DNA of 64,000 nucleotides from Eledone cirrhosa (taxonomy: Eukaryota). Below the pieces are notes generated by a model that saw only the letters and a list, made by a program, of their open reading frames with translations, searched no databases and was not told the origin of the DNA. Positions 9,241 through 61,600 of this stretch are shown here, one piece after another. Where the stretch lies: assembly GCA_964016885.1 (NCBI GenBank), contig OZ024741.1, forward strand, positions 197,470,001 through 197,534,000, written 5' to 3'. Position numbers and translations under genes: made by a program. Positions within the stretch are counted from its first letter, which is position 1. Each line of letters opens with the position of its first letter.

Positions 9241-9466
9241 CATATATATATATATATAAGTGAAAGCAACTGGTGCGTGTGTTTCTTATTGGCAACATGA
9301 CCCTCCCAAAGTATAACAATATATATATATATATATATATATATATATATATATATATATTTATATATGACGAAGCAAATGATATATATATATATATATA
9401 TATATATATATATATATATATATATTAGAATTGGTGCTCTGAAATAGCTATGCATACATGAATGAA

Positions 9467-9762
9467 TGTATAGTATATTTGGCAATATACCGTATGTTTA
9501 ATTAAAGAAATGTTGAAGACCTTACGCTATCGGTTTTAAAGTAGAGACTATGTCACTTACTTCTTTTCGGCGAAAGAAGGGAGAGAAGCTAACAGTCTGT
9601 TTGACGCTGTTGGCGATCATCAGAGCCACGTACTCCCCGCTTTCGCCGAAAATTATAGACGAAAAGAGGTAAGTGACATAGTCACTACGTTAAAACCGAT
9701 AGCGTATGGTCTTCAAAATGTTTTTAATTAAACATACGGTATATTGCCAAATATACTATACA
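9467..9762. repeat. Inverted repeat (about 100-bp arms, family C) with a degenerate HHR in the spacer (9588-9626, minus strand)
   Basis: Arms tgtatagtatatttggcaatataccg... and ...cggtatattgccaaatatactataca; minus spacer reads gct-CTGATGA-tcgccaacagcgt-CAA-ACAGACTGT-T-agc. Confidence 0.85.
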
Positions 9763-9786
9763 CATATTCATATATATATCTATATA

Positions 9787-10588
9787 CTAGCAGCTGAGCC
9801 CGGTTGCACCCGGGGCCACTTTTATTAAGTTAATAATTTGAAAAATATTATTGAAAGTTTATTATAAAGAAGCAATTTCAGGAAAAAAAATAGAAATATG
9901 CACTTGGGGCTGGACGGCGTACAATGATAAGTGGAGCGACGTGGAAAGCGTTGTTTATTAACAGCGAAATAGCAATGTCGATGATATGCAATTTGAAAAA
10001 TACTACTTACTGTTAGTGGTGGTTAACATGTATTAGAATTAAAATAAAAACACGCGTCCCTTCTTCGCAATTTAAGGGTTTTATTTCTTTTGATAGAAAA
10101 CAGTGACCGTACTGCAGAATCGATTTCATAAAACGGTACTGTATGATCGTTAAATGTAGAAGGATGATAGTTTATTAATAGCGAAATAGCAATGTCGATG
10201 ATATGCAAGTTTAAAAATGCATATTATGAAGGTTTGTATGATAGTTTACACTTTTTCCTGAAACTGCTTCTTTATAATAAACTTTCAATAATATTTTTCA
10301 AATTATTGGTACTGTATGTTAACAGCTAAAGAACGTTGATAAGTTTTAAAATGTGTATGAAATTGTAAATAACTCAGCCAAGTATTAGAACAGGGGGAAA
10401 TAACTCACCGAACGCGATAGTAAATAGACCGTTTGGGGACCCTAGGGACCACATTTTTCAAGTTAGAGATTTGAAGCCTTCCTTGGCACTTTTTACATAA
10501 TTTTTATGTCCTTCCGACCACGTCTACTACCACTTAACCGTGCACATCTGAATTTCAACCACCACCCATTTCACAAATATATATTAGA
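9787..10588 (-). mobile_element. Non-autonomous Helitron (about 800 bp)
   Basis: Minus strand starts A|TCTAATATAT and ends with the hairpin cccgggtgcaaccggg plus CTAG|T; no TSD; internal direct and inverted repeats. Confidence 0.75.
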
Positions 10589-10594
10589 TATATA

Positions 10595-10864
10595 TTTCGT
10601 TTCTGAATTTGTTTAGCAAGATTCTTTATCTGAAACCGATATTGTTATGCTTTGGGAGGGTCATGTTGCCAATAAGAAACACACGCACCAGTTGCTTTCA
10701 CTTCAATTTATTATAAATTAAATTTATAAATTTAAGAATTTATAAATTTCCGCAAATTTATAAATTCTTAAATATATAAATTTAATTTATAATAAATTGA
10801 AGTGAAAGCAACTGGTGCGTGTGTTTCTTATTGACAACATGACCCTCCCAAAGCATAACAATAT
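10595..10864. mobile_element. Family A foldback insertion in (TA)n
   Basis: Near-perfect hairpin 10639-10749 / 10754-10864 with loop ccgc; same sequence occurs at 9259, 21975, 35289 and 42470. Confidence 0.9.
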
Positions 10865-11038
10865 ATATATATATATATTTATTAAAATAACAGATTAAAG
10901 TTTAAGCAAAGAATCGCTGCTTTCACCCTTAACGGGATCTTCTGAAACTAACAAAGTCAATCTGTGAACGCAGAAGTAAATATTTCAAAAAACGTTGTAA
11001 CCGGAGGAAGACAGGAAGACGATACTTTGGTTCGTGGA

Positions 11039-11311
11039 AACGTTCCCTGGCAAAGAACGGGAAAAAACGAATATAATACGTCATTATTTGGAGCGGTGAA
11101 AAACAATTACACACAAAGACAAAACCACGTTTATGGTATAAGAGAAGTCGTAGACTAATATTCTATTAGGTGGTTCATAGAGACGTTCTCTGGCAATGAA
11201 CAGAAAAAACGAAGATAATACGTCATATGTGGAGCGGGAAGAACAATTGCACGCGATGACAAAACCACGTAAATGGTATAGCTGAAGTCGTAGACTAAAA
11301 TTCTAACTAGG
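11039..11311. repeat. Diverged direct duplication (about 142-bp period) downstream of the PLE
   Basis: acgttc..tggcaa...gaagtcgtagactaa.attcta occurs twice. Confidence 0.8.
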
Positions 11312-11961
11312 AAACCGAATGATTCTTGGCTTCAGAGTTAAGAATAAAGTAAATAAAATACAGAGGTAATTGAAATTAAATAAATACATACACGCATCCA
11401 TATACGTACATACACAAGCATACGAGAAAACGCTCGCCATAGGTATACAAATACACGCATGTACACAAAAAAAAACAAAAAAAAAACACCGCACGCACAT
11501 ACAGAACCCACGTAACACCTGTACCCGCACGCATACGAATGTATACACCAAATACACAAAAATATATATAAAATATATATATATATATATGTGTGTGTGT
11601 GTGTGTGTGTGTGTGTGTGTGTGTATACATATAATTAAATAAACGTATATAAATAAATAAATACGTATATAACAAGCGCACACACATACCTACATGTAAA
11701 TATACATATGTAGGTCAACCAAAACACGAAGTACACATATACACACACTCTACATACGTAGGAACCCGCATACTCACACAGACGCAAAACTCACGTATAC
11801 ACATAACGAAAAGCATATGTACCAGAATATATAATATATACGCCATAACATACAATCAAATATACGTACGAGAAAGTATACGTACCTTCACAAAACATAC
11901 AGGTAATATATACTTACCTATACAAATAAGTAATGGTATAAACACAACATATACTTAGCTA

Positions 11962-58416: not shown

Positions 58417-58457
58417 TATTTCGTAAAAATAATTAATGGCATAAATATAGATAGATA

Positions 58458-58591
58458 ATTGTTTCTACTTTTGGCACAAGGCCATCAATTACCCAGTACA
58501 TTACTGGCACTTTATTTTATCGACCCTGTAAGGATGAAAGGCAAAGTTAACCTCGGCGGGATTTGAACTCAGACCGTAAAGGGACGTAACT
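58458..58591 (-). mobile_element. 5'-truncated SINE
   Basis: Matches the tail and B box of the adjacent copy. Confidence 0.85.
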
Positions 58592-59131
58592 AATGTACCG
58601 AAAAACCTATTTATCTAATTTCATTAACCCAACATATTTGAATTATTTTCTTTAGCACATAAACTTTGACACTCTAATTTCTACTCGCCGAGAATCTTCG
58701 CAACTCATTTTCGAATTGGGAAAATCTTTGTCAACCGATCAAGGAGGCTCGAGTTTGACTGTACTTCACCGACGAGACAAAATAGTGTCCAAACACGCCC
58801 TTGGGTTTCTCCGTGTCTACTATTAAACAAACATGAAATCCCGCATCTCAGCATATAAATTATTGTTTGTTTTTAATTATCTTTCCTTATCCGCAAGAAT
58901 CGTTAACAAACACTATTAGGTTCTTATGTTATTTCTCCTGCTATACGAAAAACAGCAATTAATTAATTTTTTTTTTTTTAGTGTACGCCACAGAGTACAC
59001 CACCCTTCAACATATATTAAATTAAGGCCATTAGTCCACCAGAGGTATTTACAGCTTTTAGTTTTGGAAATATATACAATCATACACAGGTAGCTTATAT
59101 TCAAAGGCAATTACATGTGCGTGCACGCACT

Positions 59132-59612
59132 CATAAACATAATGCTACATATAGTAGGGACACATTTAGACATATATGGCGGCACATACATATAATGCTA
59201 CATATAGTAGGGACACATTTAGACATATATGGCGGCACATACATATAATGCTACATATAGTAGGGAGACATTTAGACATATATGGCGACACATACATATA
59301 ATGCTACATATAGTAACGAGACATTTAGACATATATGGCGACACATACATATAATGCTACATATAGTAGGGAGACATTTAGACATATATGGCGACACATA
59401 CATATAATGCTACATATAGTAACGAGACATTTAGACATATATGGCGACACATAAACATAATGTTACATATAGTAGGGAGACATTTAGACATATATGGCGA
59501 CACATACATATAATGCTACATATAGTAGGGAGACATTTAGACATATATGGCGACACATACATATAATGCTACATATAGTAGGGAGACATTTAGACATATA
59601 TGGCGACACATA
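59132..59612. repeat. 53-bp minisatellite, about 9 copies
   Basis: acatacatataatgctacatatagtagggagacatttagacatatatggcgac. Confidence 0.95.
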
Positions 59613-59714
59613 CACGTCTACTCTATCTGACGGTCTTACTCTCATTTGCTCTCTCTCACCTACATCAATCCATCCATCTATACATCCAACCATACATACA
59701 TCCATACATACACA

Positions 59715-60388
59715 TGATGATGATGATGATGATGATGGTAATGACGATAATGATGGTAATGACGATGTGGTGGTGATGATGATGGTGGTGATGATGTTGA
59801 TGATGATGGTGATGGTGGTGATGATGATGGTGGTGGTGATGATGGTGATGATCATGATGGTGGTGGTGATGATGTTGATGATGATGGTGATGGTGGTGAT
59901 CATGATGGTGGTGATGATGTTGATGGTGATGGTGGTGGTGATGATGATGTGGTGGTGATGATGATGGTGATGATGTTGATGATGATGGTGATGGTGGTGA
60001 TGATGATGGTGGTGATGGTGATGGTGGTGGTGATGAGGATGGTGGTGATGATGATGATGATGGTGTGGTGGTGATGCTGATGGTGATGGTGATGATGTTG
60101 ATGATGATGATGGTGATGATGTTGTTGATGATGGTGATGATGGTGGTGATGATGATGGTGATGATGATGGTGATGGTGGTGATGATGATGATGATGATGA
60201 TGATGATGATGATGGTGATGGTGGTGGTGATGATGATGATGGTGATGATGATGATGATGATGGAGATGATGATGATGGTGATGATGGTGATGATGATGGT
60301 GATGGTGATCATGTTGATGATGATTATGATGGTGATGATGATGATGATGATGGTGATGGTGGTGATGATGATGATGATGGTGATGATA
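59715..60388. repeat. Mixed (GAT/GGT)n trinucleotide tract
   Basis: Visible directly in the sequence. Confidence 0.95.
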
Positions 60389-61407
60389 CGAACACTAGAA
60401 TAAAGAGTCTCCGAGAGAAAAAAAAGAAAACCGACGATGGCGATGGCAATTGTTGGTATTGAACTACAGAATCGGAATAGAGAAGGAATGAAAATAATAA
60501 TTATAGTAAATATATATATATATATATATATTTACGTACACACACATACTCATATATGTATACATACACATACACACATATATATATATATATATATGTA
60601 TATATCTGTATAAATATATATAAGCGTGTGTGTGTATATATATATACACATATGTATGTAATTATATATATATATATATAAATATATATATATGTGTGTG
60701 TGTGGGTGTGTGTGTGTGTGTGTTTGTGTTGTGATAGAAAAAAGATATTAATGGAGAAGAAAAAGAAGTAAAGAAATTGAGAGGGAGAGGAAGGAATGAA
60801 CGGGAGAAGAGGAGATATGACTAAAAGAAAATAAGCGTAATTAATATTAAAAAAAAAAAATGAAAGAGAAACTGAATGAAAGAAAAAATGATTGTCAGAA
60901 GAAAAAAATGTCGGTAGGAGAAAAAGAAATTTAACAAAAGTAGTTCAGGAAAAAGAAAAAGATTGAAAGAAATGAACGAGAGAAAAATAGATGTAAACAG
61001 GAAAGAAAGAAAGAGGAGGTGATTGAAAGAAGAAAGAAATGAATGAAAGAGACGAGTAAAACATATCCTACACAAAATAAGGAGAAGAAAAAACATAAGA
61101 AAGAAATTAAGGAAGAAGTTGAGAAAACTAGTTTAATGAATGAAATAAATAAGTGAATGCTGCAGAATTAAATATTTTTTTAAAAAAGGAAAACAAAGAG
61201 ACGAAAGATGGAGAGCAAATAATGAAAGTACAAAGAAAGAAAAAAATAGAAATACGTAAAAGAGAGACAGTAACAAAAATTAGAGAAGAAGCGAATGACA
61301 GCGACGAACAAAAGACACACACATACGTTTATACATATGTATATATATATATATATATATATATATATATATATATATATATATATATATATATATATAT
61401 ATATATA

Positions 61408-61600
61408 ACGAAGTAGTTGTGGTAAGGAACCAGGTGGACCATAACGCACCAAAGTACTCAATACTTAGGGTAGTAGAGTGGGTAATAGGAACAAGTAAGG
61501 CCCCGACGGCTGAGCTCAGGCCGTTTCGACGGCTAATTCTGTACAGAATTAGCCGTCGAAACGGCTTGAGCTCAGCCGTCGGGGTCTTACTTGTTCCTAT
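61408..61600. mobile_element. Family B hairpin element, copy 4
   Basis: Same ends as copies 1 and 2; loopless palindrome 61485-61600. Confidence 0.9.

What the first reader, a model, noticed from the sequence alone, without database searches (positions are those of the whole stretch)
9259..61600. Miniature hammerhead-bearing foldback elements in (TA)n: fixed outer ends, variable centres, ribozyme strands pointing outward
Seen: about ten non-coding inserts of 200-1250 bp from several unrelated sequence families lie in or beside (TA)n tracts as palindromes (10595, 34756, 35004, 35289, 37477, 41786, 42580, 56151, 57437, 61408; 39761 has the same layout around a coding fragment). Wherever an HHR gives orientation (35289, 39761, 42580, 56151), both arms read outward, so the centre is a 5'-to-5' junction. 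Within a family the long-arm and short-arm ends recur at the same nucleotide, the short arm ending at an internal TAT/ATAT, while the centre differs per copy. Known: PLEs carry minimal HHRs in their pLTRs and often have an inverted 5' pLTR. Inference: these are non-autonomous PLE-mobilised RNAs inserted by double priming from both ends of a cut (TA)n site. The template may be an RNA dimer held by the palindromic HHR stem III.
Basis: partly seen in the sequence, partly recalled or inferred. Interest (0 to 1): 0.85.

Follow-up and report, generated by a model that had tools for sequence, protein, structure and literature searches.

The report
Palindromic stubs of Penelope-like retrotransposons
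The small mirror-image inserts in these TA microsatellites are real and match the known end structure of Penelope-like jumping genes, and they likely form when both ends of a cut chromosome start copying the element's RNA at two fixed points and the two short copies are joined back to back.

Summary
Observation confirmed. Eleven listed palindromes exist with long and short outer ends and differing centres. Hammerheads read outward, and 15 of 16 point to a nearby (TA)n tract. Raw reads of two other samples show family B's two fixed ends in thousands of reads, plus variable head-to-head joints. The layout is published Penelope-like element (PLE) anatomy: an inverted 5'-truncated copy of variable size, a one-sided tail and (TA)n targets (PMC3846280, PMC8557442, PMC2377424). 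Two RT start sites with both-strand extension were shown in vitro (PMC11167929). 'Non-autonomous' is not needed: two hammerhead ends here adjoin PLE RT/GIY-YIG coding DNA, and one has a short non-coding sibling. The RNA-dimer idea has no support: no centre lies at stem III. What remains open is the mechanism. Coupled arm ends, shared arm variants and near-non-overlapping inversions favour twin priming on one RNA over the published self-priming idea. Arms ending 42-119 nt upstream of the ribozyme hint at run-off from the transcript's 5' end. Family B may be a true miniature. The scan reported the same kind of stub earlier in shark-like genomes.

The parts
10595..10864 (.). Family A palindrome: long arm 10595-10752 (-), short arm 10754-10864 (+); both arms stop about 80 nt downstream of the ribozyme core position, so no hammerhead
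35289..35831 (.). Family A palindrome: short arm 35289-35514 (-, core 35469), long arm 35515-35831 (+, core 35583)
35750..35830 (+). ATG-started 27-codon open frame running off the family A long end (likely the start of a PLE ORF; no relative found)
21975..22300 (-). Family A solitary arm with the long end and a hammerhead (core 22216)
9258..9322 (+). Family A solitary arm with the short end
42341..42520 (.). Divergent family A copy with non-overlapping inverted arms (left arm carries core 42405, right arm carries the short end)
34756..34959 (.). Family B palindrome, long arm left
37477..37676 (.). Family B palindrome, long arm left; 37477-37615 was the reference for read laying
61408..61600 (.). 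Family B palindrome, long arm left
57438..57658 (.). Family B palindrome of a divergent subfamily, long arm right, short tandem duplication at the centre
35004..35255 (.). Family D palindrome, 36-nt tail on the right, no hammerhead found
41716..42089 (.). Family E palindrome, outward hammerheads at 41869 (-) and 42005 (+), about 70-nt tail on the left
42580..42994 (.). Family F palindrome, outward hammerheads at 42680 (-) and 42804 (+), palindromic stem III, tail on the right
56147..57403 (.). Family G: two direct copies (-) plus one inverted copy (+), U3:A8 hammerheads at 56304, 56895, 57081; the published 'two direct plus one inverted pLTR' layout without an ORF
39710..40977 (+). 5'-truncated coding PLE (RT thumb, CxxC linker, GIY-YIG at 39956-40680) with its 3' pLTR and an inverted, tailed pLTR at the 5' side
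7755..9241 (+). 5'-truncated coding PLE (RT and GIY-YIG remnants) ending in a hammerhead (9140) and (AT)n: family C long end
22330..22535 (+). Non-coding solitary family C arm with the short end (core 22448)
9426..9783 (.). Family I palindrome, older, with a degenerate hammerhead-like motif reading outward
5321..5540 (-). Solitary hammerhead arm (core 5442) between two (TA)n tracts
41273..41697 (-). Solitary hammerhead arm (core 41473) between two (TA)n tracts
53030..53330 (-). Solitary hammerhead arm (core 53243) ending at (CT)n(TA)n

Best explanation
These palindromes have the end structure of Penelope-like retrotransposons (hammerhead read outward, one long and one short fixed end, TA-repeat flanks) and are likely very short insertions of such elements, each likely made when both ends of a cut TA repeat prime reverse transcription at two fixed sites in the element's RNA and the two short cDNAs are joined at their inner ends. 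Shown here: the anatomy, the fixed ends in many copies, the outward ribozymes, and the same layout around PLE coding DNA. Known from in vitro work on another PLE: both strands are cut and extended, at two adjacent RT start sites that define the tail. Inferred: that this produced these inserts; that both primers usually use one RNA molecule (the RT lacks RNase H, recalled, so the second enzyme could displace the first cDNA); that the stubs look non-coding only because synthesis stopped inside the pLTR, in many cases perhaps at the transcript's 5' end. The ribozymes are passengers: arms run through uncleaved sites.
For: Same layout around RT-thumb/GIY-YIG DNA at 39710-40977. The 9140 hammerhead end follows PLE coding DNA, and 22448 is its non-coding sibling with a 15-nt shorter end. 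Solitary arms exist with the long end (21975, 9140) and the short end (9258, 22448), so each end can start an insertion. 15 of 16 hammerheads have (TA)n within 350 nt downstream against a 0.25 background (15 of 20 counting four weak cores I dropped); loose (TA)n ends at the short end in 3477 and 2977 reads and at the long end in 1199+1985 and 1080+2353 reads, of 23,709 and 24,348 reads laid; the same ends appear in contigs of a second organism (3 and 3 records of 40 laid). All 13 opposite-strand joints shown (15 of 27 rows shown) read as inner-end junctions. Two of them (37560 to 37604 and to 37614) have shorter sides of 51 and 61 letters, exactly a whole short arm, joined to a long arm that stops about 7 nt past the short-arm start, the L1-type twin-priming pattern. 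Arms share copy-specific variants (61408: 2; 57437: 8; 10595: 2); B arms differ by a mean 3.5 of 55 columns within copies and 8.5 between. Inner ends of the two arms lie within 0-53 nt of each other in 10 of the 11 listed inserts. Papers: PMC3846280, PMC8557442, PMC2377424, PMC11167929.
Against: No full-length autonomous partner was found for A, B, D, E, F or G: no genome was held and family A's frame found no relative. No target-site duplication can be seen in (TA)n and no empty allele was examined. Symmetric centres like those in the window were not among the joints shown; most reads stop at 37605, probably at a library restriction site (inferred from the AATT there). 37557-37565 is a subfamily indel where alignments break, so the pile-up of long-arm stops there may be partly an artefact. 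Shared arm variants can also come from gene conversion, snap-back, or two RNAs of one source locus; two B copies show no shared variant at all, and the between-copy mean is raised by the divergent 57437 copy. Asymmetric centres can arise later by deletion at a palindrome. B and D have no complete ribozyme, so D's orientation is assumed.
Confidence: 0.75

Rival explanations
1. Self-priming (snap-back): one cDNA folds back on itself near its 3' end and is copied outward, and the copy is joined to the other target end at a TAT microhomology. This is close to the self-priming model proposed in PMC3846280.
For: It also predicts coupled inner ends and shared variants. Short ends of A, B, E and F lie at TAT/ATAT. 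Letters seen beyond the B centre in contigs could form a 6-bp stem with a 10-nt loop right at the centre (loose ends at 37614; agreement only 0.47).
Against: Solitary short-ended arms exist (9258, 22448). Inversions in which neither arm contains the other occur at 42341 and probably in reads. Window B centres include letters inside the putative loop on both arms. Two RT start sites were shown in vitro (PMC11167929).
Confidence: 0.2
2. Some families, B above all, are true non-autonomous miniature RNAs (about 155 nt for B) with their own 5' end, mobilised in trans by a PLE protein.
For: All 8 B arms in the window end within about 10 nt. 12 of the 13 opposite-strand joints shown have one arm starting at 37604-37615, and contigs running past the centre mostly add about 24 letters. 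B is abundant: about 0.19% of reads in each RAD run. G has the tandem layout without an ORF. Non-autonomous PLE partners are in print (PMC8557442; bioRxiv 10.64898/2026.07.22.740005).
Against: A defined 5' end is equally expected from run-off at the start of an autonomous mRNA. The joints shown are the best supported only, the reference ends at 37615, and rows hidden from the main table include other positions. No tandem retrozyme arrays were seen. Families C and H are tied to coding DNA.
Confidence: 0.3
3. The template is an RNA dimer held by palindromic hammerhead stem III, each RNA primed by one target end.
For: PLE hammerheads are described as dimer-type (PMC4209133); F and G have perfectly palindromic stem III; the PLE protein is predicted to be a dimer (PMC11167929).
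Against: No centre lies at stem III; arms run 42-119 nt past the core or stop short of it (10595). 9 of 16 cores lack a perfect stem III palindrome. Hammerhead mutants did not change insertion in vitro (PMC11167929). Two independent RNAs would not by themselves couple the inner ends.
Confidence: 0.07
4. They are foldback DNA elements (MITE-like) copied as whole palindromes, with centres eroded afterwards by hairpin-tip deletion.
For: B centres are nearly constant in the window; perfect palindromes are known to lose their centres (established knowledge).
Against: Solitary single arms, unequal ends, outward ribozymes and attachment to PLE coding DNA; 10595 and 35289 centres differ by about 150 nt with both arms stopping together.
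Confidence: 0.04
5. Assembly or foldback-read artefact.
For: The exact junctions of these loci were not seen in reads.
Against: Arms differ by 0.3-10% and by indels; ends recur across loci; the fixed ends and head-to-head joints recur in two independent Illumina samples and in contigs.
Confidence: 0.02

Closest known systems
EN+ PLE insertion unit with inverted 5' pLTR and one-sided tail (PMC3846280, passages and part 2; PMC8557442 Fig. 2 legend, passages; PMC2377424, passages)
   Same: Head-to-head junction, inverted 5'-truncated copy of variable size, tail on one end, pLTR containing the first codons of the ORF, two-direct-plus-one-inverted layout (G), (TA)n bias.
   Different: Here the whole insert is often only the two pLTR stubs; tails range from 15 to 170 nt rather than 30-40; those papers leave the mechanism open or favour self-priming.
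Poseidon element of the green anole in vitro (PMC11167929, parts 1-2 of 4 read)
   Same: AT-rich cleavage, extension of both strands, two internal RT start sites that define the tail, ribozyme dispensable.
   Different: The parts read do not connect both-strand extension to inverted genomic copies; the coding remnants here carry the CxxC linker described for Neptune and Nematis.
Minimal and dimer-type hammerheads of PLEs (PMC4209133, passages)
   Same: Type I, short or palindromic helix III, extra nucleotide before helix II, widespread outside full elements.
   Different: Family G has a U3:A8 core and a 57-nt helix II; activity was not tested.
Non-LTR retrozymes and non-autonomous PLEs (bioRxiv 10.64898/2026.07.22.740005, parts 1-3 of 5; PMC8557442)
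   Same: Small, non-coding, type I hammerhead, pLTR-related.
   Different: Retrozymes are defined as head-to-tail arrays with a ribozyme in each unit; these are head-to-head pairs or single arms.
L1 twin priming (PMC11702581, passages)
   Same: Both target ends prime on the RNA and give an inversion.
   Different: L1 inversions barely overlap and the second site is not fixed; here the second site is fixed and overlap is usually extensive.

Membership tests
EN+ PLE insertions | RT plus C-terminal GIY-YIG ORF linked to the terminal sequence | tested here: inconclusive
   Met for H (39956-40680) and C (7755-8800); not shown for A, B, D, E, F, G (no genome).
EN+ PLE insertions | Type I hammerhead in the pLTR, sense to the element | tested here: met
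   A, C, E, F, G complete; H and I degenerate; B and D not found.
EN+ PLE insertions | Inverted 5'-truncated copy joined head to head | tested here: met
EN+ PLE insertions | Tail present on one end only; two fixed 3' ends | tested here: met
   G has long ends on both arms and the short end on its third copy
EN+ PLE insertions | pLTR and tail contain the start of the ORF | tested here: inconclusive
   27-codon ATG frames at the A and C long ends; no homologue; such a frame can arise by chance.
EN+ PLE insertions | Microsatellite (TA)n target bias | tested here: met
EN+ PLE insertions | Target-site duplication or empty allele | not testable with these tools
   Hidden in (TA)n; one read-laying run only.
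Non-LTR retrozymes | Head-to-tail tandem units each with a complete hammerhead | tested here: not met
   Only G has two direct copies; all others are inverted or single.
Non-autonomous PLE partner (SINE-like) | Defined 5' end and no link to an ORF anywhere in the genome | tested here: inconclusive
   B's inner ends cluster; absence of an ORF link cannot be shown without the genome.
MITE / foldback DNA element | Equal terminal inverted repeats, constant centre, no single arms | tested here: not met

The most novel reading that the evidence does not exclude
The inverted pLTR of Penelope-like elements is made by twin priming on a single RNA: both target ends start at two fixed sites near the transcript's 5' end and run off that end, like retroviral strong-stop DNA, so miniature palindromes are a routine product of full-length mRNAs and their centres map the transcription start; family B would be a roughly 155-nt element specialised on this route. 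Hints: 12 of 14 hammerhead arms end 42-119 nt upstream of the core (post hoc, arms not independent), about where the Penelope start site lies relative to its ribozyme (PMC2377424 with PMC4209133); long arms often stop where the short arm starts. One search for 'Penelope, strong-stop, pLTR' found no paper.
Probability: 0.3. Interest if true: 0.6.

Novelty: new member of a known kind. Interest (0 to 1): 0.3.

Why it matters
As anatomy it is ordinary: undescribed families of a known insertion structure. Its use is as material. How PLEs make their inverted ends is called an open question in PMC8557442 and PMC3846280, and very many short copies with two fixed ends and a readable centre make twin priming, self-priming and run-off at the transcript start separable by genome-wide counting. 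It also warns that such stubs will be mis-annotated as MITEs, microRNA hairpins or retrozymes.

Tried and rejected
No whole genome was held, so copy tables rest on the window and one read-laying run. Rfam gave no hammerhead among the 150 of 160 rows shown, nearly all sub-threshold microRNA hairpins. Family A's 40-residue frame found nothing in Pfam, in the longer-protein search or in 1.84 billion representatives, and the N-termini of 127 fetched PLE-like proteins matched no arm; weak negatives for so short a query. A family B motif had 0 matches in metagenome contigs. No RNA holder was listed. My idea that B's centre is the loop of a hammerhead stem II was not borne out: the 30 letters shown beyond the centre hold no core motif and B folds no better than shuffles, so B's ribozyme is unproven. 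The mass read end at 37605 is read as a library cut site, not biology. Four weak cores (9838, 10301, 32621, 58734) were dropped before the 15-of-16 count. The B divergence table used a wrong column range and was redone. Ribozyme-sized folds were not significant against shuffles (z -1.45 to +0.97). Look-ups of earlier notes by place and sequence found nothing relevant. Supplements of the papers were not read and may show such miniature copies.

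
Full report
Setting. The window is 36% GC animal DNA rich in (TA)n, (CA)n and (GA)n. No genome was held. It holds at least seven remnants matching RT/GIY-YIG proteins of PLE type, at about 5108-5236, 6608-7331, 7755-8800, 12037-13497, 31412-32901, 39956-40659 and 50942-51646 (two of the fetched relatives carry Pfam RVT_1 and GIY-YIG).

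Observation. All eleven listed inserts are inverted repeats, with arms of 58-389 bp and spacers of 0-53 bp, 889 bp for the coding copy. They fall into unrelated families, here A, B, D, E, F, G and H. A type I hammerhead scan allowing C3:G8 or U3:A8 cores found 20 cores against 0-6 in shuffles. In A (35289), E, F and G both arms read outward. Of 16 cores kept (four weak ones dropped), 15 have a (TA)n tract within 350 nt downstream, against 25% of random positions; with the four it is 15 of 20. Long and short ends recur within A and B. TAT/ATAT at the short end is clear in four families and partial or absent in three.

Other copies. One arm of family B (37477-37615) was laid on two raw RAD runs and two contig sets. 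About 24,000 reads per RAD run mapped. The top loose-end classes are (TA)n attached at the short end (3477 and 2977 reads) and at the long end (3184 and 3433 reads over two clipped rows); 482 further rows were not shown. The same two ends occur in a second organism. Of 27 joints, 15 were shown, 13 of them strand-changing, and all 13 read as inner-end junctions: one arm stops at 37501-37577 and, in 12, the other starts at 37604-37615. Most reads end at 37605, next to an AATT that most copies carry; I read this as the library's cut site, which would remove most symmetric centres, and none was among the rows shown. So the family's fixed ends and variable head-to-head joints are independent of this assembly, but the individual loci were not verified.

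What it is. The copy at 39710-40977 is a 5'-truncated coding PLE with its 3' pLTR and an inverted, tailed pLTR. The hammerhead at 9140 ends another coding remnant, and 22448 is a non-coding sibling whose end is 15 nt shorter. G has two direct and one inverted copy. Family A's long end is a 27-codon ATG frame that runs off the end, without a detectable relative. The literature describes this unit: inverted 5'-truncated copy and a 30-40 bp tail on one end, with (TA)n bias (PMC8557442, passages); pLTR containing the first 12 codons, 22 with the tail, head-to-head junctions with palindromes, self-priming proposed (PMC3846280, passages and part 2); inverted repeats that vary in size between copies (PMC2377424, passages); dimer-type hammerheads in pLTRs and scattered through genomes (PMC4209133, passages). 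Stubs that stop inside the pLTR would look non-coding, so non-autonomy is not required.

How it likely works. In vitro, a Poseidon protein cuts and extends both strands, starts at two adjacent internal sites that match the tail, and does not need the ribozyme (PMC11167929, parts 1-2). Priming from both ends then gives a long and a short fixed end and a variable inner junction (inferred). Against snap-back: solitary short-ended arms (9258, 22448); the 42341 copy, whose arms do not overlap; and read joints whose shorter side equals a whole short arm (51 and 61 letters) beside a long arm stopping at 37560. For one RNA rather than two: inner ends within 53 nt in 10 of 11 inserts, including 10595, where both arms stop about 150 nt earlier than in 35289; shared private variants in 10595, 61408 and 57437, none in 34756 and 37477; and long arms stopping near the short-arm start in 5 of 13 joints, as in L1 twin priming (PMC11702581, passages). 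Each point has a caveat: later deletion at palindromes, gene conversion, two RNAs from one locus, and an alignment-breaking indel at 37557-37565. That PLE RT lacks RNase H is recalled, not tested.

The dimer idea. No centre lies at stem III; arms pass 42-119 nt beyond the core in 12 of 14 cases (224 and 268 in the others); 7 of 16 cores have a perfect stem III palindrome. I find no positive evidence.

Residual novelty. The clustering of inner ends upstream of the ribozyme resembles the position of the Penelope transcription start (intron 46 nt after the start, PMC2377424; intron end at helix I, PMC4209133), suggesting run-off from the mRNA's 5' end. This is post hoc and untested; one search found no paper with these terms, and two others listed none linking twin priming to PLE inversions by title or abstract start. 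Family B's inner ends cluster within about 10 nt in the window and may mark a true miniature element; its ribozyme is unproven.

Earlier notes of this scan describe the same kind of stub in shark-like genomes; these are unchecked and not counted as support.

Verdict: real, PLE-derived, anatomy known; mechanism partly open and testable. Interest 0.3.

Noticed in passing
window 14244-14974 (SINE-like insert at 14395-14574): A roughly 550-bp palindrome (96-97% arm identity, 4-nt centre) outside (TA)n; both outer ends are a small hairpin followed by CTAG then T, which I recall as the Helitron 3' end. Two such ends facing outward are unexplained.
   Followed up: partly
window 32786-33067: Inverted duplication inside a PLE GIY-YIG remnant whose coding strands converge (3' to 3'), the opposite polarity to the finding.
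   Followed up: partly
window 57081, 56895, 56304: Hammerheads with a compensatory U3:A8 core and a 57-nt helix II.
   Followed up: partly
window 3955-3970, 5237-5256, 9367-9381: Ultra-short (15-20 nt) pieces matching the terminal letters of families I and C beside (TA)n: likely aborted insertions.
   Followed up: partly
window 39801-39816 and 40922-40935: Both arms of the coding copy contain an internal (TA)7-8, so some termini may include flank captured from an earlier insertion; G's 170-nt tail also looks flank-like.
   Followed up: no
window 35520-35531: A YY1-like motif (recalled) right at the 5' end of family A arms, compatible with a transcription start.
   Followed up: no
window 50942-52946: GIY-YIG remnant with a 1.2-kb AT-rich 3' region and a degenerate hammerhead-like motif about 70 nt before (TA)n.
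   Followed up: no
window 24311-27904: 3.6-kb minisatellite with a 21-bp unit.
   Followed up: no
window 14390-14578, 15036-15228, 33993-34184, 50160-50333, 58225-58592: Abundant SINE-like repeat; recalled as resembling an octopod tRNA-derived SINE, unverified.
   Followed up: no
window 48475-50160; 17859-20007 and 44136-47349: A 561-codon frame that looks like a hAT-type transposase, and duplicated fragments of a non-LTR retrotransposon with a zinc-knuckle domain.
   Followed up: no
window 9785-10310: Element with 56-bp inverted repeats (9832-9887, 10252-10307) inserted at the edge of the family I palindrome.
   Followed up: no
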